A stretch of 64,000 nucleotides of DNA from a virus: IMG/VR virus record IMGVR_UViG_3300001199_000005, positions 32,001 to 96,000 of that record; one strand, given 5' to 3'. Under the pieces are notes generated by a model. The model was not told the DNA's origin. It worked only from the letters and a program-made list of their open reading frames with translations, and did not search any database. Shown here piece after piece: positions 4,057 to 25,418 of the stretch. Each line of letters opens with the position of its first letter. Within the stretch, counting starts at the first letter, position 1. Made by a program: the position numbers and the translations under genes.

Positions 4057-4759
4057 TCCAAATTATTGGTCTTAGTTCCTTAGAAATAAGAAACTTATTT
4101 ATAGTACTAAAACATTTATTACCATTCCACTCTCTATTATTCCTTATTGCAAAAGCAGGATGTTCATTGAGAATCTTTAAATGTTTATTGGTGATTAACG
4201 ATTCTAAAGTTTGAGCTTCTGAACCTATCAATAACCAGGCTAAATGTTCTTTTTTGTTAAGTACTTCAATTGTATTCTTAATAAATATTTCCCAACCTAA
4301 ATCTTTGTGAGATAAAGGTCTATTCTCTTCAACTGTTAGTGAAGAATTCAGAAGTAGTACACCCTGTCTTGCCCAGCAAGATAAATCTGTATACTCTGAA
4401 GGTGGAAATAATCTTAAATCAAAATCTATATGTTCTAGTATCTTTGCTAAAGATGGAACAGTTCTTAAAATTTCTCTGTATTCATCACATTTTTTTCTAG
4501 TAGAAAATGCTAGTCCATCAGCAACTCCTGGTGATGAGTACGGGTCTTGTCCTATAATAACTACTTTAACTGATACTTCTGGGCATTCTTTGAAAGCTCT
4601 AAACATGTCAGGACCGCCTGGATATACATTTATTTGACTACGTCGACTCTTTATAAAAGATAGTAGTTTCTTCATGTACTCTTTATTGAATTCAGGTACA
4701 AGAGATTCCCAAACTCCTAACGACCTTGCTAGAGAACTATATAATTCTTCATCTGTCAT
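4046..4759 (-). CDS. ung: Uracil-DNA glycosylase, family 1
   Basis: GQDPY, ADGLAFS, WARQGVLLLN and HP motifs. Confidence 0.92.
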   Translation of the reverse strand: MTDEELYSSLARSLGVWESLVPEFNKEYMKKLLSFIKSRRSQINVYPGGPDMFRAFKECPEVSVKVVIIGQDPYSSPGVADGLAFSTRKKCDEYREILRTVPSLAKILEHIDFDLRLFPPSEYTDLSCWARQGVLLLNSSLTVEENRPLSHKDLGWEIFIKNTIEVLNKKEHLAWLLIGSEAQTLESLITNKHLKILNEHPAFAIRNNREWNGNKCFSTINKFLISKELRPIIWNES

Positions 4760-19712: not shown

Positions 19713-19955
19713 CTACCCTCTACTATTATTTGATGGGGAGTTAATTGACTCATATCGTTGAATGTTTAGTCTATTTTCTTTACTTAATTCTCTAGCCAAG
19801 TTCTCCACATAACTATAAGTCTTACTATGTATTGTCGCTAACTTTCTAAAAGAGAACTTATACAGAAGTAAATCTCGTATTAGTGCTTCTCTTAGTATTC
19901 TACTATGATTCGTTTGAATAGGCATACAGACAGCATTCAATATCTGTAGGTTCAA
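19713..19955 (-). CDS. Hypothetical protein
   Basis: Short ORF; start uncertain. Confidence 0.35.
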   Translation of the reverse strand: MNLQILNAVCMPIQTNHSRILREALIRDLLLYKFSFRKLATIHSKTYSYVENLARELSKENRLNIQRYESINSPSNNSRG

Positions 19956-20325
19956 ATATATTACAAATTACTTTATAATATTGTTCCCAATCTCCCCCAG
20001 CTAATCCACAGCCTATAAATACAGGCATGGCGATAGACTTTGGCTTAAGCGCTACAATAGCGTACATACACTTCTTAAACCATTCTAATCTTGGTTCTTT
20101 ATCTGATTTTCCAGGATAATCCTGTGCATAGGCATTAATTATTCTACCATGAACTGATATTTCTCCAGGAATACGTTTGAAGTTGGAATCTATATAGGTA
20201 TTAGCTTCTGGAAAAACTTTGAATATTTGATTAGCAAGACCTGATGAATGATAACTTCTGCAATTACATTGATGTATGATGTAATCTTCTTTTGCTTTTA
20301 ATATATCACCGTTTATTTGTAACAT
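19903..20325 (-). CDS. Macro-domain ADP-ribose hydrolase (Poa1p/DarG-like)
   Basis: GDIL, IIHQCNC, GLANQI, IINAYAQ, IGCGLAGGDW. Confidence 0.85.
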   Translation of the reverse strand: MLQINGDILKAKEDYIIHQCNCRSYHSSGLANQIFKVFPEANTYIDSNFKRIPGEISVHGRIINAYAQDYPGKSDKEPRLEWFKKCMYAIVALKPKSIAMPVFIGCGLAGGDWEQYYKVICNIFEPTDIECCLYAYSNES

Positions 20326-20582
20326 GTTTTAAAGTTATAGTTAATTGTATCTCTTCCTACAATAGAATATCCTGTACTAATAATAGTATCAGCTTTATAC
20401 TCTAACCATAATGACAGGCTATGCCCTTTATCATGGAAATGAACTGAATTCTCATACTCCACATAAAACAAATCAGGTGCTGGTACTTTATAGACCAACA
20501 CCTGATTAGAAAATTCAACCTGTAATTGACAGCCATAACTTGGGCATATTACAGCCCAAGCTATAAGCAGTTCCTGTATCAT
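20313..20582 (-). CDS. Hypothetical protein
   Basis: 89-aa ORF coupled to neighbours. Confidence 0.5.
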   Translation of the reverse strand: MIQELLIAWAVICPSYGCQLQVEFSNQVLVYKVPAPDLFYVEYENSVHFHDKGHSLSLWLEYKADTIISTGYSIVGRDTINYNFKTCYK

Positions 20583-22381
20583 ATATTGAATTTTTCTACA
20601 ACAACTTTTACTTCGTCGTAGGCATTATTTCTATATGAAATATCTAACGCTGTATAAGGATTAAGAATATCCCAATCTTTTACATTCATAACTAGTTTGG
20701 TAATGTTCTCCACTTGACCAGGAACAAAAATAAGTCCAGGAACTTCTTTGAAATCTCTTACATCCCTGTTTTGTCCAACATCCATCAAGACAACAAGTTC
20801 TGGTCTGTAGCCAACTTCTACCTCCATAATCTTCATGGCTGCGTCAAATGAACGAACCACGTCACGCTCATTATTAAAGTTACCATCACTGATTAATAAC
20901 CAGATTGGATATGAACTAAGTAGTTCTCTAATACTATCCCTTTCAGCAAGACTGGCTGTTTTCATTATACCGTGTATAGCTTCGCCAATAGAAGCTAAAT
21001 TAGTACCATTCCCAGTTTGAATAGCTGATAAGAAACCACTTAACTGCTTATAGTTCTCCAACAAAGACTTTCTTTTATCTACCAACGGCTGTTTTGCTGC
21101 TTGCACAGCTTCACCAAATCTAGTAGCTTTCTTGTCAACGTAGGAAATATATCTAGCCTTATCAGAAAATGTCCAGAATCCTGAATCAGTTTCGGTCTTT
21201 AGCAGAACAATGGTAAGTAAAAACTTAGCAACATCAATAGGCTTAATGGAGCCACTAGAACCACCATACATAGAGCCACTATCATCAACAAACACCATTA
21301 CTTTATCAGTACCTAGCTTAACAGTCTTCAAATACTCTTCAGCAGCAAGAGCGTCCACAGTTTCAGTTCTTAAAGCTTCTAGTATTGTTTTTGTATTATA
21401 TACACCACGACTAACTTTAGCTTCTTTCTCTAATTGCTTTAAGTTGATTTGGTCGGTCAAAGATAACTCTTTGCCTTCGTTATCAGCTTTAAAATCTCGT
21501 AGTGTTTGATTGCTTTTCTCTTTCGATTCTTGCCATTCTTTGAAAATGTCAATCATAGGAGTATCTACAATCTTCCATAATTCAGGCTGTTTAACTATTC
21601 TATTATAGACTCGTTTTCTAGCACCACCAGTAAGGTGGTCAAGCCAAGTCAAGAAGTCTTGTTTAGTAAACTTAAGTATTTCCTTAGTAGAAAACATTAC
21701 TGACTCTAACTGCTTGTTATGTTCTTTCTTAAACTCTTCGGCACCGATATACCTAGTATTCTTAGGATAATATTTAATATCCCAATTCATTACTGAACTA
21801 AGCTCAATAGCGAACTTATGTTTTAGTCTTTGAGCGGTGACAGAGGCCTTTGACCTAGCTACTTTGATAGTCTTATCTTTTAACTTCCTCTTAGGCTTTG
21901 AATGAGGAAGTACTAACTGTTTAGCAGCTATTACTCTTCTCATAGGATTGCCCTTAACCCAAGCAGCGAATATTTTTGCCTGTGTAGCTAAATCATAGAT
22001 ATTGTTTCTATCTGTGGTTACATAGTATAGCTCTGATAATGAGGTGAACTCAATCAATACACGTACTATTGCTTCCAAGAATTCAGGTTTGTCTATAAAT
22101 TTAACAAATATCCAGTTAAATATTACTTGTCCTGACTTTCTATTAGCGTAACCACCAATAGTTCTTTGACTTTTCGCATAAATCCAATGCTGTCTATTTG
22201 TAATTGCAATACATTCTGCTAGTAATACAAAGAACAATTGTTTGTGCTCTTTAGTAGTACATTCATGCCAAGCATTAGTAATATCTGATTCTGAAATCAA
22301 ATCTTTACCTATTGCGTTTGATAATACCAGTAGTGCTGGTTTGTTATCAAAAGGGGTCTTTTTTTGAGTTAGTGTTACCAT
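20579..22381 (-). CDS. TROVE/Ro60-like (DUF2828-type) protein with C-terminal vWA domain
   Basis: 600 aa; basic helical N-terminus with RTIGGYANR; MIDAS VDDSGSM, TFS, GNGTN, LISDGNF; lies downstream of Y-RNA-like genes. Confidence 0.7.
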   Translation of the reverse strand: MVTLTQKKTPFDNKPALLVLSNAIGKDLISESDITNAWHECTTKEHKQLFFVLLAECIAITNRQHWIYAKSQRTIGGYANRKSGQVIFNWIFVKFIDKPEFLEAIVRVLIEFTSLSELYYVTTDRNNIYDLATQAKIFAAWVKGNPMRRVIAAKQLVLPHSKPKRKLKDKTIKVARSKASVTAQRLKHKFAIELSSVMNWDIKYYPKNTRYIGAEEFKKEHNKQLESVMFSTKEILKFTKQDFLTWLDHLTGGARKRVYNRIVKQPELWKIVDTPMIDIFKEWQESKEKSNQTLRDFKADNEGKELSLTDQINLKQLEKEAKVSRGVYNTKTILEALRTETVDALAAEEYLKTVKLGTDKVMVFVDDSGSMYGGSSGSIKPIDVAKFLLTIVLLKTETDSGFWTFSDKARYISYVDKKATRFGEAVQAAKQPLVDKRKSLLENYKQLSGFLSAIQTGNGTNLASIGEAIHGIMKTASLAERDSIRELLSSYPIWLLISDGNFNNERDVVRSFDAAMKIMEVEVGYRPELVVLMDVGQNRDVRDFKEVPGLIFVPGQVENITKLVMNVKDWDILNPYTALDISYRNNAYDEVKVVVEKFNI

Positions 22382-22597
22382 ATTTTCCTATTGTTAAATG
22401 TAAATGTACTTGATTTTTCTGAAGAGTCTGTACTCTGCTGAGTCACTTTCTCATTAAGGAGTTCAACAAACTTACTAAAAGATATTTTTTCTCTGTGAAG
22501 TTGGTTAAACCAATCTCTTACTTGAGCTACTATAAAAATTTTTTTCATTCTAATATATTATAAATATTGTCTACTTGAAATCCAGCAGCCTTACAAA

Positions 22598-22906
22598 TCA
22601 TTTTTTTTCAAGTTTTGGATTATGAAATATTTTAACTGATTCAGCAAGTGCATCTATAAGTTCGTCTTCTCTAAATTTTAGCAAAGTTGTGCTTACATTG
22701 ACAAGCTTCCAGAACTTTGCATTAATATCGTATATAGAAGGTTTCTCAATTAAATATAATCTACATTGATAAAATACTTGAGTACCTGCATAACAGGTAT
22801 TAGTTTCTACATCCATTACTTCTAATAATTGGAATGAATCTTCCTCAAAGACAAGGTGTTTCTTTTGTACTAAATCACCTATTGAATACTTGGTTTTAAT
22901 GTCCAT
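22598..22906 (-). CDS. Hypothetical protein
   Basis: 102 aa, MDIKTKYSIGD-type phage N-terminus. Confidence 0.6.
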   Translation of the reverse strand: MDIKTKYSIGDLVQKKHLVFEEDSFQLLEVMDVETNTCYAGTQVFYQCRLYLIEKPSIYDINAKFWKLVNVSTTLLKFREDELIDALAESVKIFHNPKLEKK

Positions 22907-22920
22907 ATTTTTATTTTAGA

Positions 22921-22960
22921 TAAAAAAAAATAAGCCTGCCGTTTTTACTTCAGCAGGCTA
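22921..22960 (-). terminator. Intrinsic terminator ending the small-RNA array
   Basis: AGCCTGC/GCAGGCT stem followed by a T9 run. Confidence 0.75.
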
Positions 22961-22968
22961 TGTAAGAA

Positions 22969-23061
22969 GACATACTATAAGGCGGATTCGAACCGCTTTC
23001 TTCTGATTTCAAGTCGGACGCTATACCAAAATAGCAGCTGTTAATGAGTTGTGAGTATGTC
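22969..23061 (-). ncRNA. Array unit H: closing stem + CACAAC + D arm, Ser(UGA)-type anticodon arm and T arm; no acceptor stem
   Basis: GACATACT/AGTATGTC; TCCGA-CTTGAAA-TCAGA; GCGG-TTCGAAT-CCGC. Confidence 0.75.
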
Positions 23062-23070
23062 AAAGGCTGA

Positions 23071-23125
23071 AGCTTACTATTATTTTAAACGGACTGTTAT
23101 TTTTTTGTATAGTTGTAAGTAAGCT
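23071..23125 (-). ncRNA. Array unit G: minimal unit with no clear tRNA part
   Basis: AGCTTACT/AGTAAGCT + TACAAC; A-rich insert with weak AAC-AGTCC-GTT hairpin. Confidence 0.65.
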
Positions 23126-23156
23126 GAGTATCTATAATTTTTTTTAGTCTAGGAAA

Positions 23157-23222
23157 AGAATTCTATATTGGTCAATTTAAAAGGTTGATGCTCTACCGAG
23201 CGGGTAAAGTTGTAAGAATTCT
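23157..23222 (-). ncRNA. Array unit F: D-like hairpin + Lys(UUU) anticodon arm
   Basis: AGAATTCT/AGAATTCT + TACAAC; GCTC-GGTA-GAGC; TCAAC-CTTTTAA-ATTGA. Confidence 0.75.
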
Positions 23223-23231
23223 AAAGAAGTA

Positions 23232-23293
23232 AGCATACCATATTGGTCAATTTAGCAGATTGGTGCCCGAAGGCTCTAAGTTGTAGGTATGCT
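23232..23293 (-). ncRNA. Array unit E: UUCG hairpin + Ser(GCU) anticodon arm
   Basis: AGCATACC/GGTATGCT + TACAAC; GCC-TTCG-GGC; CAAT-CTGCTAA-ATTG. Confidence 0.75.
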
Positions 23294-23324
23294 GAATATC
23301 TATTATTTGAAATAGTCTAAGTAA

Positions 23325-23380
23325 GACATGCTTTTTGTTTGGCAACATTATCAGTGTTTATTTTTAGTTGTAAGCATATC
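23325..23380 (-). ncRNA. Array unit D: isolated Ile(GAU) anticodon arm
   Basis: GATATGCT/AGCATGTC (one U-G pair) + TACAAC; AACA-CTGATAA-TGTT. Confidence 0.75.
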
Positions 23381-23394
23381 GAAAGTCTTGAATA

Positions 23395-23461
23395 AGAACA
23401 CTATAGTTGTCAAAAACCAAAATTTGATGCCCGAATAGGCGTTTTTAGTTGTGAGTGTTCT
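23395..23461 (-). ncRNA. Array unit C: small hairpin + probable Gln(UUG) anticodon arm
   Basis: AGAACACT/AGTGTTCT + CACAAC; GCC-TATTCG-GGC; TCAAA-TTTTGGTT-TTTGA (8-nt loop, register ambiguous). Confidence 0.7.
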
Positions 23462-23473
23462 GAATGTCTGAAA

Positions 23474-23569
23474 GAAGTACTATAATTTAAACACCCAAGG
23501 ATTTCTCCTGCAGAGTATTATTGGAATCGAACCAATTTTAACCATTTTGTTAATGATTGTAAGTACTTC
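23474..23569 (-). ncRNA. Array unit B: T arm followed by a capped acceptor-like stem
   Basis: GAAGTACT/AGTACTTC + TACAAT; ATTGG-TTCGATT-CCAAT; ATACTC...GGGTGT enclosing AGGA-GAAA-TCCT. Confidence 0.7.
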
Positions 23570-23583
23570 AATATGTCTTGAAA

Positions 23584-23697
23584 AGAATACTATTATCCTG
23601 CTTTCGCAGTCTATACAGGAGTTGAACCCGTTACTGATTGATTATAAGTCAATTGCTCTACCAGATGAGCTAATAATTAATGAGTTGTAAGTATTCT
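23584..23697 (-). ncRNA. Array unit A: D arm, Ile(UAU) anticodon arm, T arm and GAAA hairpin; no acceptor stem
   Basis: AGAATACT/AGTATTCT + TACAAC; GCTC-ATCTGGTA-GAGC; ATTGA-CTTATAA-TCAAT; ACGGG-TTCAACT-CCTGT; CTGC-GAAA-GCAG. Confidence 0.78.
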
Positions 23698-23703
23698 GTT
23701 TTG

Positions 23704-23802
23704 TGCGGAAAACTGGGGTCGAACCAGTAGAACATATTTCGCTTTAGTTTGTCGAGGTCTAAAGCCTTTGAAATACTGCTTTGCCAATTTGCATATTTCC
23801 AC
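23704..23802 (-). ncRNA. tRNA-like RNA (Leu-like body) with greatly extended anticodon arm
   Basis: Acceptor GTGGAAA/TTTCCGC + A; D arm TGC-AAATTGGCAAA-GCA; T arm ACTGG-TTCGACC-CCAGT; anticodon arm GTATTTC/GAAATAT + GCTTTAG/CTAAAGC. Confidence 0.7.
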
Positions 23803-23808
23803 ATTTTT

Positions 23809-23852
23809 AAAAAGACCTGCCGTGTTTCAATATCCTTCGACACGGCAGGTTT
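23809..23852 (-). terminator. Intrinsic terminator after the YrlA-like RNA
   Basis: ACCTGCCGTGT/ACACGGCAGGT 11-bp stem + CTTTTT. Confidence 0.75.
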
Positions 23853-23854
23853 GT

Positions 23855-24000
23855 GCAGCGCATCTTTTAGAAAGTTTAATGCTGATGTATCCAAACGTTC
23901 TACCATTTAAACTACTCACCCTTGTTGTTATTGTTTTTGAGGGCAAGAGGGGGCTCGAACCCCTAATTTTTTGGAGGTCTGACTTTCTATATGCAACTGC
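23855..24000 (-). ncRNA. Circularly permuted tRNA-like RNA on a long bulged stem (YrlA-type Y RNA architecture)
   Basis: Order: long stem 5' strand, T arm AGGGG-TTCGAGC-CCCCT, loop-closed acceptor CTTGCCC/GGGTGAG, D arm GTTT-AAATGGTA-GAAC, long stem 3' strand. Confidence 0.8.
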
Positions 24001-24088
24001 TGATAAAGAATAAGCTAAGGCTATCGTTCAACACTAACTACGACAATTTAAACGTTAGGGTGAAGTTTAGACTGAAGCTTAAACGGTC

Positions 24089-24889
24089 TTAAATCTTACC
24101 TCGATGGAGATAAGAAAATATTTTGTTTGCTGTCATTTCTGATTCAACTGCTACAACATCATTAGCAACTTTTAATGCTTCTATAACTGCTGTTAATAAT
24201 CGTGAACGACGAGCAAGGATTTCTGCTCTTTGTGTATGTGTGTATTCTCCTGAAAAACGTTGATGTGAGTAATCACCAAGTTCCAAAGTATTATCTTTTG
24301 TAGCCACCATTGGAGTATACTTAGTGCTAGCATTCTCAATTTTACCAATATTAGGGTCTGGTAAAATGTATTGCTCTTTCACAGTAGTCTTGGTAGTACC
24401 AGTACGTAAAGGAGTTTCGTAGACTGCTCTTGAAGAATACATCTCATTAGTAGTTGGGGCCCAAATCTCATCATCATTACGTACTGGAATATTCTCGTAC
24501 AACTCCTTTAAAGTGCCATTTTCCAACAGTGATTTCAAACGAAGTAACTCTAATGATGAGAATTCACCAAACAATTCTCCATCTACCTCTAACTTTGCCC
24601 TTACTATGCCTTTAGCATTAGTTGCTTCTTGTGCAAATAAAGCATTAATATAATCAGCAGAAGTCCTTTCTAGGAAGTCTAACTTTTCTGCCACAGTTGT
24701 TACTACCAACTTGTTAGAACGCTCGCTTGGAACATCCATAGTTCCTGGTTTTGGCTCGTAACTCTTGCGTTCCCCCTTGAAAGCACCTTGAGAACTTTTA
24801 AAGAACTTTACATAATCTGTAATCATTCCTTTAAATATTGTCGAAAGGTGGTCTGTTTTGGCTAACAGAGTGTTTAACTTTAAGTTCAT
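24089..24889 (-). CDS. Conserved-looking hypothetical protein directly upstream of the YrlA-like RNA
   Basis: 266-aa ORF with its own promoter motif. Confidence 0.7.
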   Translation of the reverse strand: MNLKLNTLLAKTDHLSTIFKGMITDYVKFFKSSQGAFKGERKSYEPKPGTMDVPSERSNKLVVTTVAEKLDFLERTSADYINALFAQEATNAKGIVRAKLEVDGELFGEFSSLELLRLKSLLENGTLKELYENIPVRNDDEIWAPTTNEMYSSRAVYETPLRTGTTKTTVKEQYILPDPNIGKIENASTKYTPMVATKDNTLELGDYSHQRFSGEYTHTQRAEILARRSRLLTAVIEALKVANDVVAVESEMTANKIFSYLHRGKI

Positions 24890-24986: not shown

Positions 24987-25418
24987 TTATTGGTTGATAT
25001 AGCTCTCCAACTCTTTGATACGTGTTTGGCGAGCTTCTGTGTTAGTAGTAAGCTCCAATGTTTTCAAAGTATCTAATTCAGCCTTCATTTCAGCTTTCGC
25101 TTTGGCTGCTTTCGCTTTATTAGCTACTTCAAGCGCTTCGTTATACTTATACTTAATCAGACCTTCTAGCAATATTTTCCAGGTCGCTGATGTTGAATTT
25201 GGGCTTGTTGGTTTTTCTTGTAGACCGGCTAGGAAACTTGAACGGCTTTCCTTTGCAATATGCTCATTTAAGCGAGACAAAATTGTATCCAAGTGTTCTA
25301 CGGACAAATCCAGCAGCTGCCAAGGTGTCACAGCTGAAGATAAATTCTTTAAAGTTGTTCCTTGTGGTAATGTGGCTCCCGCTATTGATAGGGAGAAGAA
25401 TGCTTCTGCTAAGTTCAT
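24987..25418 (-). CDS. Hypothetical coiled-coil protein
   Basis: 143 aa, Ala/Lys-rich C-terminal helix. Confidence 0.6.
   Translation of the reverse strand: MNLAEAFFSLSIAGATLPQGTTLKNLSSAVTPWQLLDLSVEHLDTILSRLNEHIAKESRSSFLAGLQEKPTSPNSTSATWKILLEGLIKYKYNEALEVANKAKAAKAKAEMKAELDTLKTLELTTNTEARQTRIKELESYINQ

What the first reader, a model, noticed from the sequence alone, without database searches (positions are those of the whole stretch)
20579..24889. Phage Ro60/TROVE-like ribonucleoprotein locus: vWA protein, RNA array and YrlA-type RNA
SEEN: on one strand, in transcription order, a promoter, a 266-aa gene, a permuted tRNA-like RNA, a tRNA-like RNA, the 8-unit array, small ORFs, then a 600-aa protein with a basic helical N-terminus and a vWA MIDAS (DDSGS...GTN...SDG). 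A macro-domain gene follows. KNOWN: Ro60/Rsr proteins are TROVE+vWA rings that bind Y RNAs encoded nearby, and Y RNAs use one stem to bind Ro60 and a second module to recruit effectors. INFERENCE: this protein is the scaffold for the array, giving one protein with many interchangeable RNA adaptors. That would extend the one- or two-Y-RNA systems known from bacteria.
Basis: partly seen in the sequence, partly recalled or inferred. Interest (0 to 1): 0.85.

Follow-up and report, generated by a model that had tools for sequence, protein, structure and literature searches.

The report
Phage Ro60-like protein with RNA array
A 153-kb uncultured crAss-related phage encodes a very divergent relative of the Ro60 ring protein beside eight tandem small RNAs that share one constant "handle" and carry different tRNA-like pieces. 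The same protein-RNA pairing recurs in about 55 related phage contigs, which points to an undescribed, many-RNA version of the Ro60/Y-RNA particle.

Summary
On the minus strand, 22969-23697 holds eight tandem units. Each has a perfect 7-bp closing stem plus a U-A pair, the motif YYACAAY on the 5' side, and a different cargo: tRNA-like bodies, a T arm, or anticodon-type hairpins.

The 600-aa protein (20579-22381) has no Pfam TROVE hit. Its full-length model nevertheless matches Ro60 structures best, and language-model features point to TROVE clusters. It has a complete vWA MIDAS motif. The helical half searched alone looks only like a generic HEAT solenoid.

The decisive evidence is comparative:
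- In 55 related phage loci the same module (xAC-UUACAAN ... A-GUx) occurs 256 times on the gene strand and 3 times on the other, typically 6 per locus.
- A reverse search of 2.9 million viral contigs with one RNA variant hit 28 places, 26 of them on contigs carrying this gene.
- In 38 loci a unit encloses or abuts the gene's own start codon, which suggests autoregulation.

The constant motif differs from the known Y-RNA motif (GNCGAA). Binding is inferred, not shown. The DUF7873 gene, the YrlA-like RNA and the macro gene are not conserved parts. Other first-stage notes of this scan flagged the same DNA. I class it as a new variant of the Ro60/Y-RNA kind, of high interest.

The parts
20579..22381 (-). 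Ro60-like protein, 600 aa: N-terminal HEAT-like helical solenoid (about residues 1-355) plus a C-terminal vWA domain with a complete MIDAS (D366, S368, S370, T460, D499)
   Evidence: phrog_850 'RNA-binding protein', E 7e-10. No Pfam hit.
23584..23697 (-). Unit 1: closing stem + UUACAAC. Cargo is a tRNA-like body (D, anticodon-type loop UAU, T arm, only 3-4 acceptor pairs) plus a GAAA hairpin.
   Evidence: (Rfam tRNA 47.3 bits, model positions 5-66)
23474..23569 (-). Unit 2: closing stem + UUACAAU. Cargo is a T-arm-like hairpin and two further hairpins.
   Evidence: z -3.7
23395..23461 (-). Unit 3: closing stem + UCACAAC. Cargo is short hairpins.
23325..23380 (-). Unit 4: closing stem (one G-U) + UUACAAC. 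Cargo is an anticodon-type hairpin (loop CUGAUAA) followed by GCCA.
   Evidence: loop read by eye
23232..23293 (-). Unit 5: closing stem + CUACAAC. Cargo is a UUCG hairpin and an anticodon-type hairpin (loop CUGCUAA) followed by ACCA.
23157..23222 (-). Unit 6: closing stem + UUACAAC. Cargo is a D-arm-like hairpin and an anticodon-type hairpin (UUU) followed by ACCA.
23071..23125 (-). Unit 7: closing stem + UUACAAC. Cargo is short, A-rich and unstructured.
22969..23061 (-). Unit 8: closing stem + UCACAAC. Cargo is a tRNA-like body (D arm, loop CUUGAAA, T arm) without an acceptor stem.
   Evidence: (Rfam tRNA 28.7 bits, gathering score 29)
22922..22959 (-). Terminator-like hairpin (7 bp, 13-nt loop) plus U9 that closes the array
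   Evidence: Read. Not listed, whose loop limit is 8.
22375..22906 (-). Two small ORFs (102 aa and 57 aa) between the array and the Ro60-like gene. The second overlaps its start. No family assigned; membership in the system unknown.
24987..25418 (-). 143-aa ORF, a tentative counterpart of the ~145-aa coiled-coil gene that precedes the Ro60-like gene in 49 of 55 related loci
   Evidence: hhalign probability 30%, E 5.5e-4, 110 columns. No other homologue found.
23704..23802 (-). tRNA-like RNA with acceptor, D-like and T arms and a long central arm. It lacks the constant motif; link to the system uncertain.
   Evidence: A counterpart sits in L014.
23809..24000 (-). YrlA-topology permuted tRNA-like RNA plus terminator hairpin. 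It lacks the constant motif and travels with the DUF7873 gene (also in L014).
24089..24889 (-). DUF7873 gene. A neighbour, found in only 2 of 55 related loci.
19903..20582 (-). 89-aa ORF and a DarG/TARG1/YmdB-type macro-domain ORF, overlapping each other and the end of the Ro60-like gene. Same operon here; not conserved in relatives.

Best explanation
The 600-aa protein is a remote, phage-specific relative of Ro60: a HEAT-like solenoid closed by a vWA/MIDAS domain. It forms ribonucleoprotein particles with a family of modular Y-RNA-like small RNAs.

Each RNA has a constant handle and a variable head. The handle is the paired 5' and 3' ends (6-7 covarying pairs ending in A-C/G-U, plus a U-A pair), followed on the 5' strand by single-stranded UACAAY. 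The head mimics a tRNA or part of one: a whole tRNA-like body, a YrlA-type permuted T+D body, a T arm, or an anticodon-type hairpin.

The protein binds the handle, mainly through the conserved 5' strand as Ro60 does with Y RNAs, and so stabilises and presents the heads. The heads engage tRNA-binding host factors, either as tethers (as Y RNA tethers PNPase to Rsr) or as decoys for tRNA-directed nucleases. In most relatives a copy of the handle wraps the gene's own ribosome-binding site and start codon, so excess free protein would shut off its own translation.

This phage packs eight such RNAs into one 730-nt transcription unit with trimmed heads that cannot be aminoacylated.

Shown: the RNA structure and its covariation, the gene-RNA linkage, and the Ro60-like fold. 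Inferred: binding, autoregulation and the targets of the heads.
For: Protein:
- Ro60 structures are the best full-length matches (Foldseek E 2e-6 to 3e-4; VIA Z 13.4 with 381-420 residues aligned over model residues 12-592).
- 26 of the 30 nearest Atlas clusters are TROVE clusters, score 0.96, 192-196 shared features.
- The best PDB profile hit is the phiLo TROVE protein, though only at E 0.25 in the vWA part.
- The MIDAS residues are invariant.

RNA:
- Eight of eight perfect stems in the window.
- In relatives the middle stem pairs switch between A-U, U-A, G-C and C-G with 100% pairing. The covariation score is 0.49 against 0.15 in shuffles and 0.14 or less when slid.

Linkage:
- 256 units on the gene strand against 3 on the other in 55 loci, and 53 of 55 loci have at least one.
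- TTACAAY with a stem occurs at 97 of 414 sites on the gene strand against about 7% for control heptamers.
- The reverse search of IMG/VR gave 28 hits, 26 on contigs with the gene.
- The only two cellular-genome hits (MAG contigs) carry tandem units right after the gene.

Y-RNA identity:
- The unit just after the gene in L010 scores 46 bits, E 4e-8, with Rfam YrlA.
- The topology is that of YrlA (PMC4201824).

Leader copy: in 38 of 55 loci (16 of 24 clusters at 70% identity) a unit encloses (28) or ends 3-45 nt before (10) the start codon.
Against: - No Pfam TROVE, vWA_Ro60 or DUF2828 hit reaches threshold for any member.
- The helical domain alone finds only generic HEAT/ARM repeats (Foldseek best E 0.2; VIA best Z 6.8; no Ro60 among the top 50). 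Homology of that half therefore rests on the full-length matches and on language-model features.
- The known Ro-binding motifs (GGUCCGA, GNCGAAN0-1G, CGAA) are absent.
- A ~145-aa gene is linked almost as tightly and could be the RNA binder instead.
- The window's own gene has no recognisable leader unit.
- Some cargos in relatives are complete tRNAs (47 ARAGORN calls inside units), which also fits a role as a pre-tRNA processing signal.
- There are no expression or binding data.
Confidence: 0.65

Rival explanations
1. The constant handle is recognised by another factor, most plausibly the conserved ~145-aa coiled-coil protein encoded just upstream, or by both proteins together. On this reading the Ro60-like protein works on other RNAs, such as misfolded or damaged tRNAs threaded through its ring.
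For: The ~145-aa ORF lies 33-475 nt upstream of the Ro60-like gene in 49 of 55 loci. The leader unit sits between the two genes. Co-occurrence cannot separate the two proteins.
Against: The small protein has no RNA-binding family signature. It is absent from four loci that have upstream sequence, three of which still carry units. In the window it has at best a 30%-probability counterpart, yet the array is intact. Ro60 proteins are established Y-RNA binders, and one unit scores as YrlA.
Confidence: 0.15
2. The units are processing cassettes. The closing stem plus UUACAAY is a cleavage signal for a host or phage endoribonuclease that releases tRNAs and small RNAs from long transcripts. The Ro60-like gene is linked only because it sits inside the phage tRNA cluster.
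For: The loci are tRNA-rich: 283 ARAGORN tRNAs, 232 of the 236 outside units on the gene strand. 47 cargos are called as tRNAs, some scoring 55-65 bits with Rfam.
Against: 236 of the 283 tRNAs in the same loci lack the module. The module also wraps the start codon of the Ro60-like mRNA in 28 loci. The motif search across 2.9 million viral contigs returned almost only contigs with this gene. The window's cargos lack acceptor stems, so no tRNA could be released.
Confidence: 0.12
3. These are DNA-level elements: inverted-repeat cassettes of a mobile or recombination system that shuffles tRNA gene fragments.
For: Short inverted repeats flank variable cargo, arranged in tandem. Two units share a duplicated 12-mer (D16).
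Against: There is a strand bias of 256 to 3. Compensatory changes keep pairing rather than sequence, and G-U pairs are tolerated. The conserved motif is asymmetric. No recombinase is linked.
Confidence: 0.03

Closest known systems
Bacterial Rsr (Ro60) with YrlA/YrlB Y RNAs (Salmonella, Mycobacterium, Deinococcus Yrn1; Chen et al. 2014, PMC4201824)
   Same: A ring-type HEAT+vWA protein is encoded next to small RNAs whose paired ends carry a conserved 5'-strand motif. The other end of the RNA mimics tRNA (T and D arms, permuted order). One relative's unit scores 46 bits with Rfam YrlA.
   Different: The protein is not detected by Pfam TROVE. The constant motif is UUACAAY next to an AC/GU-ended stem, not GNCGAAN0-1G. 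There are 6-11 RNAs per locus instead of 1-2. The heads also include full tRNA-order bodies, lone anticodon-type hairpins and non-tRNA sequences. There is a leader copy on the gene's own mRNA. There is no rtcB/rtcA neighbourhood.
Thermus phage phiLo phiRo60 with Yrl1 and Yrl2 (PMC12135203; PDB 9KOP, 9L5Y)
   Same: A phage-encoded Ro60 homologue with Y-like RNAs encoded directly upstream. 9KOP and 9L5Y are among the best structural matches (Z 13.3 and 11.1 with 420 and 413 residues aligned).
   Different: phiRo60 is a recognisable TROVE protein of about 500 aa. It has two RNAs, both found through the CGAA motif. No arrays, no tRNA-part heads and no leader mimic are reported.
DUF2828/DUF7788 vWA proteins of phages and eukaryotes
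   Same: Similar size and a helical N-terminal half plus a vWA domain. An Atlas structural row gives TM 0.47/0.53 over 373 residues.
   Different: No Pfam DUF2828 hit in any member. TROVE clusters dominate the feature search. No RNA partners are known to me for DUF2828.
Autoregulatory mRNA mimics of RNA-binding proteins (thrS operator mimicking tRNA-Thr; ribosomal-protein operators); from general knowledge
   Same: A copy of the protein's presumed RNA target encloses the ribosome-binding site and start codon of its own gene.
   Different: This has not been reported for Ro60 or Y RNAs as far as my searches show, and it is untested here.

Membership tests
Ro60/TROVE proteins | Match to the TROVE profile (Pfam PF05731) | tested here: not met
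   No TROVE hit for the window protein, for 30 family members or for 10 distant members. The PDB profile search gives the phiLo TROVE protein only at E 0.25, in the vWA part.
Ro60/TROVE proteins | C-terminal vWA domain with a MIDAS (DxSxS...T...D) | tested here: met
   DDSGS 366-370, T460 and D499 are invariant in the family. vWA structures match at Z about 10. Pfam vWA_Ro60 is only at E 0.059.
Ro60/TROVE proteins | N-terminal HEAT-repeat horseshoe that closes into a ring with the vWA domain | tested here: inconclusive
   The full-length model matches Ro60 chains best, over 381-420 residues. The domain alone gives only generic HEAT/ARM hits. Ring closure could not be inspected.
Ro60/TROVE proteins | Binds Y RNAs encoded nearby | not testable with these tools
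   The gene-RNA linkage is strong. No RNA-protein modelling or experiment was possible.
Bacterial Y RNA (Rfam YrlA, RF02553) | Reaches the family's gathering score (69 bits) | tested here: not met
   Window 23866-23988: 21 bits. The eight units give no YrlA hit. The best relative, L010 8202-8314, scores 46 bits, E 4e-8.
Bacterial Y RNA (Rfam YrlA, RF02553) | Conserved 5' motif GNCGAAN0-1G (Ro-binding region) | tested here: not met
   Absent from all units. The conserved motif is AC-UUACAAY/N. The motif definition is from PMC4201824.
Bacterial Y RNA (Rfam YrlA, RF02553) | Paired 5' and 3' ends plus a tRNA-like T/D module | tested here: met
   The closing stem covaries. T and D arms are present in units 1 and 8 and in many relatives, in both normal and permuted order. 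Other units carry only parts of a tRNA or none.
Bacterial Y RNA (Rfam YrlA, RF02553) | Encoded next to a Ro60-type gene | tested here: met
DUF2828 (PF11443) | Match to the Pfam profile | tested here: not met
   No hit. There is only a structural resemblance, TM about 0.5.

The most novel reading that the evidence does not exclude
These phages use a Ro60-like ring as a universal socket for a library of plug-in RNAs. The heads of these RNAs display individual tRNA parts (in this phage, anticodon-type loops UAU, GAU, GCU, UUU and UGA that none of its nine real tRNAs carries). The particles would act as stabilised decoys or traps for host tRNA-directed defence nucleases or modification enzymes. 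The protein would set its own level through a handle copy on its mRNA. This would be a protein-RNA counter-defence platform with no described precedent.
Probability: 0.3. Interest if true: 0.92.

Novelty: new variant of a known kind. Interest (0 to 1): 0.8.

Why it matters
Ro60/Y-RNA particles are conserved from bacteria to humans, where Ro60 is a lupus and Sjogren autoantigen, yet what Y RNAs do is still largely open. Known systems have one to four Y RNAs.

This family offers a natural experiment. One protein is paired with 6-11 RNAs per locus that keep an identical short handle and vary only in the head. The heads are recognisable tRNA parts, and there is a built-in operator on the protein's own mRNA. 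That makes three things directly testable: the modular "handle plus effector head" model of Y RNAs, the rules of Ro-type RNA recognition (a new motif), and a possible role of phage tRNA mimics in the conflict over host tRNAs.

It also defines a new structured-RNA class and a protein family of about 100 clusters at 50% identity. Both are absent from Pfam, Rfam and 50,697 GenBank phage records, and both are found in large crAss-related phages from metagenomes.

Tried and rejected
- Megablast and tblastn of the locus and the protein against 50,697 GenBank phage records gave no match, even at E 10.
- phmmer of the protein against PDB gave nothing.
- The helical domain was folded alone and searched with Foldseek and VIA-wide. 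It gave only generic HEAT/ARM hits, so this did not add specific support for TROVE.
- The Atlas fold library was not on the machine.
- Complex prediction for the Ro60-like protein with the 145-aa partner was not available, so there is no information on whether they bind.
- I looked for a leader unit on the window's own gene. Only 3 pairs can form, so I rejected it.
- I tested whether DUF7873, the macro domain or other window neighbours are conserved with the protein. They are not: DUF7873 is in 2 of 55 loci and the others in none.
- The homologue search for the 143-aa ORF found only itself.
- The sigma-70 promoter scan was uninformative.
- I considered a CRISPR-like array and rejected it, because the stems differ between units and covary.
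- I considered tmRNA for the permuted RNA. ARAGORN calls none.

Full report
**What is there**

The window is part of a single 152,878-bp viral contig. Its terminase is about 30% identical to those of crAss-like phages and 46% identical to an unannotated human-faecal phage record.

Between 19.9 and 25.4 kb every gene lies on the minus strand. In transcription order the region holds:
- a 143-aa ORF (24987-25418);
- a DUF7873 gene (24089-24889; Pfam E 2.6e-36);
- a permuted tRNA-like RNA with T arm before D arm (23866-23988; Rfam YrlA 21 bits, far below the gathering score of 69), followed by an 11-bp hairpin and U-run (23809-23850);
- a tRNA-like RNA with a long central arm (about 23704-23802);
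- eight tandem units (22969-23697);
- a second hairpin plus U9 (22922-22959);
- two small ORFs;
- the 600-aa ORF (20579-22381);
- an 89-aa ORF and a macro-domain ORF (19903-20325).

**The eight units**

Each unit has a 7-nt 5' arm followed immediately by YYACAAY. Five have UUACAAY (four UUACAAC, one UUACAAU), two have UCACAAC and one has CUACAAC. A cargo of 34-93 nt follows, then an A, then the exact complement of the 5' arm. That gives 56 pairs with a single G-U.

The eight arm sequences all differ. All eight units fold with an 8-bp closing stem. The loose pattern occurs about 2-3 times per 64-kb strand in shuffled sequence. Nowhere else in the 153-kb genome is there a unit with the xC/Gx-ended stem.

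The cargos are:
- a tRNA-like body with only 3-4 acceptor pairs plus a GAAA hairpin (unit 1; Rfam tRNA 47 bits over model positions 5-66);
- a T-arm-like hairpin (unit 2);
- short hairpins (units 3 and 7);
- anticodon-type hairpins with 7-nt CU-NNN-AA loops followed by NCCA (units 4-6, read by eye);
- a tRNA-like body without an acceptor stem (unit 8; 28.7 bits).

The loop triplets are UAU, GAU, GCU, UUU and UGA. None is the anticodon of any of the nine tRNAs ARAGORN finds in the genome.

**The protein**

Pfam gives nothing. PHROGs gives phrog_850 'RNA-binding protein' at E 7e-10 over the C-terminal half.

The family is small and metagenomic:
- 47 clusters at 25-31% identity in the 5.8-billion-protein collection, none with a Pfam domain or an informative name;
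- 101 representatives at E 0.001 or better among 1.84 billion;
- no match in 50,697 GenBank phage records, even at E 10;
- only two short MAG contigs among 185,579 prokaryotic species genomes.

An AlphaFold2 model built on 30 sequences has mean pLDDT 80 and pTM 0.69. Its 12 best Foldseek matches in the PDB are all Ro60/TROVE structures: Xenopus and human Ro60, Deinococcus Rsr and Thermus phage phiLo Ro60. Their E-values run from 2e-6 to 3e-4 and they align over the full length. vWA-only proteins start at E 1.6e-3.

VIA-align gives Z 11.1-13.4 with 381-420 residues aligned across model residues 12-592 for the Ro60 entries aligned over both halves. vWA-only proteins reach at most Z 10.8 with 160-200 residues. 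In the ESM Atlas, 26 of the 30 nearest clusters by language-model features are TROVE clusters (score 0.96, 192-196 shared features). The structural rows list the protein's own family first, then DUF2828/DUF7788 and TROVE at TM about 0.5. The MIDAS residues (D366, S368, S370, T460, D499) are invariant.

Against this, the helical half folded alone (pLDDT 77) retrieves only generic HEAT/ARM solenoids. Foldseek's best E is 0.2, and VIA-wide's best Z is 6.8 with no Ro60 among the top 50. No family member reaches a Pfam TROVE, vWA_Ro60 or DUF2828 threshold.

I conclude that the architecture is Ro60-like and remote homology is likely, at about 0.85. The protein is not a detectable member of Pfam TROVE.

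**Comparative test of the protein-RNA link**

The search for related loci gave 55 IMG/VR loci of about 7-14 kb centred on a homologue. These fall into 41 clusters at 90% protein identity and 24 at 70%.

- *Forward scan.* Scanning with the window-derived pattern showed the same module beside the gene, with the consensus xAGNNAC-UUACAAU ... A-GUNNCUx.
- *Without requiring pairing.* TTACAAY is twice as frequent on the gene strand (414 against 213). 97 of the gene-strand copies have a 7-bp partner, against 14 on the other strand and about 7% for control heptamers.
- *Relaxed definition* (xC-UYACAAN, six pairs plus U-A). There are 256 units on the gene strand against 3 on the other. 53 of 55 loci have at least one, the mode is 6 per locus and the maximum is 11.
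- *Reverse test.* One stem variant plus the motif (20 specified bases) was searched in all 2.9 million IMG/VR contigs. It hit 28 places, 26 of them on contigs that carry the gene. The other two are on incomplete fragments.
- *Cellular genomes.* The two MAG contigs also carry tandem units directly after the gene, five within 460 nt in L084. Tight arrays like the window's therefore recur.

**RNA structure**

I aligned 31 units with tRNA-order cargo (29 from relatives). RNAalifold recovers the closing stem (including the U-A pair), the D arm and the T arm. The two middle pairs of the closing stem switch among A-U, U-A, G-C and C-G, and between C-G and U-A, with no broken pair.

Across the structure, 99.8% of cells are paired, against 82% in shuffles and 33-42% when slid. 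The covariation score is 0.49 against 0.15. The units were selected for a paired closing stem, so pairing there is partly by construction. The exchange of pair types, and the D and T arms, were not selected.

UACAAY stays unpaired. Conservation is concentrated on the 5' strand, which matches what is reported for Ro60-Y RNA recognition (PMC4201824).

**Cargo diversity in relatives**

A first scan with a stricter motif found 175 units:
- 46 have tRNA-order bodies;
- 22 have permuted T-then-D bodies, the YrlA topology;
- 39 have a T arm by a crude regular expression;
- 68 have short non-tRNA cargos.

ARAGORN tRNAs inside units, some with 8-nt anticodon loops or UCA anticodons. 236 other tRNAs in the same loci have no handle. 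The permuted unit just downstream of the gene in L010 scores 46 bits (E 4e-8) with Rfam YrlA. Apart from tRNA and one tmRNA hit, Rfam has nothing for these regions.

(1) *A leader copy of the handle.* In 38 of 55 loci (16 of 24 clusters at 70% identity) a unit encloses the start codon of the Ro60-like gene (28 loci; the 3' arm lies 14-57 nt into the ORF) or ends 3-45 nt before it (10 loci). A copy of the handle on the protein's own translation start is what an autoregulated RNA-binding protein would have. This is the strongest indirect pointer to the handle being a protein operator. The window's own gene lacks it. It is instead overlapped by an upstream small ORF.

(2) *A conserved upstream gene.* A ~145-aa coiled-coil ORF lies 33-475 nt upstream of the gene in 49 of 55 loci. 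It has no Pfam family. The window's 143-aa ORF is at best a distant counterpart (hhalign probability 30%, E 5.5e-4 over 110 columns; otherwise an orphan).

None of the window's other neighbours is conserved with the gene. DUF7873 is in 2 of 55 loci. In L014 it is again followed by a permuted tRNA-like RNA plus terminator and a tRNA-like RNA. That trio is therefore a separate module.

**Mechanism**

I take the Ro60-like protein to bind the constant handle and to stabilise and present the variable heads. The heads would engage tRNA-binding proteins. The precedents are Rsr-Y RNA-PNPase and the phiLo phiRo60-Yrl-PNPase complexes (PMC4201824; PMC12135203).

The window's heads are trimmed tRNA parts that cannot be charged. 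Their anticodon-type loops are absent from the phage's real tRNAs, and the gene sits among the phage's tRNA genes. A DarG/TARG1/YmdB-type macro domain lies in the same operon here. Together these make a decoy or counter-defence role attractive but unproven; I put it at about 0.3.

The rivals are binding by the 145-aa protein, a processing signal for tRNA precursors, and DNA-level cassettes. They are weighed in their own sections.

**Comparison with what is known, and novelty**

The system works like Ro60/Y RNA. It fails two formal membership tests, Pfam TROVE for the protein and the Rfam YrlA score and motif for the RNAs. I found no paper linking crAss-like phages with TROVE or Ro60, and none describing this motif. 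The jumbo-phage survey mentions only canonical TROVE proteins with one tRNA-like partner (PMC7824862).

I class it as a new variant of a known kind. Other first-stage notes of this scan, made on an overlapping window of the same genome, already describe the array, the YrlA-type RNA and the NCCA-flanked hairpins. I re-derived these from the sequence.

Noticed in passing
L052:7521-8725 (likewise L043, L046, L048): The Ro60-like gene is split into a ~510-aa ORF and a ~100-aa ORF about 1.2 kb downstream. In L052 the insert encodes a 319-aa LAGLIDADG-type protein (Pfam E 3.5e-7). This suggests an intron or a homing-endonuclease insertion in the vWA domain. Rfam finds no group I intron there.
   Followed up: partly
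window 19903-20325 (-): The macro-domain ORF in the same operon is of the DarG/TARG1/YmdB type (PADLOC DarG E 1e-8; best PDB hit 'RNase III inhibitor' YmdB, E 1e-4). It could be an ADP-ribose-removing enzyme acting on nucleic acids. It is not conserved next to the gene in relatives.
   Followed up: partly
window 22969-24000 (-): The tetramer AGAC (mostly as YAGAC or CAAGAC) recurs in five of the seven linkers between units, as UUUGAC in a sixth, and inside the two upstream tRNA-like RNAs (AGACCUC in both). Its meaning (processing site or second protein site) is unknown.
   Followed up: no
window 23704-24889 (-) and L014:3257-4440: DUF7873 (64% identical in L014) is followed in both phages by a conserved box (AAAUUGUCGUA-GUUAGUGUUGA), a permuted tRNA-like RNA with terminator, and then a tRNA-like RNA that in L014 ends in an encoded CCA. 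This may be a second protein-RNA module, independent of the Ro60-like gene.
   Followed up: partly
L040:4680-5192: An Rfam tmRNA hit (51.5 bits, gathering score 47) lies directly after a unit (4559-4672) upstream of the Ro60-like gene.
   Followed up: no
L030:2740-2812, L044:5386-5460, and several loci (e.g. L004:8160-8235): Some unit cargos are tRNA-like with a UCA anticodon (opal-suppressor type, called 'SeC' by ARAGORN) or with 8-nt anticodon loops (UUUG, UUCU, UUGG). These could be suppressor or frameshift-type tRNAs, or deliberately non-decoding mimics.
   Followed up: no
L001-L055, about 33-475 nt upstream of the Ro60-like gene: A conserved ~145-aa coiled-coil ORF with no Pfam family is found in 49 of 55 loci. 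It ends in a PED-IKELE-type motif.
   Followed up: partly
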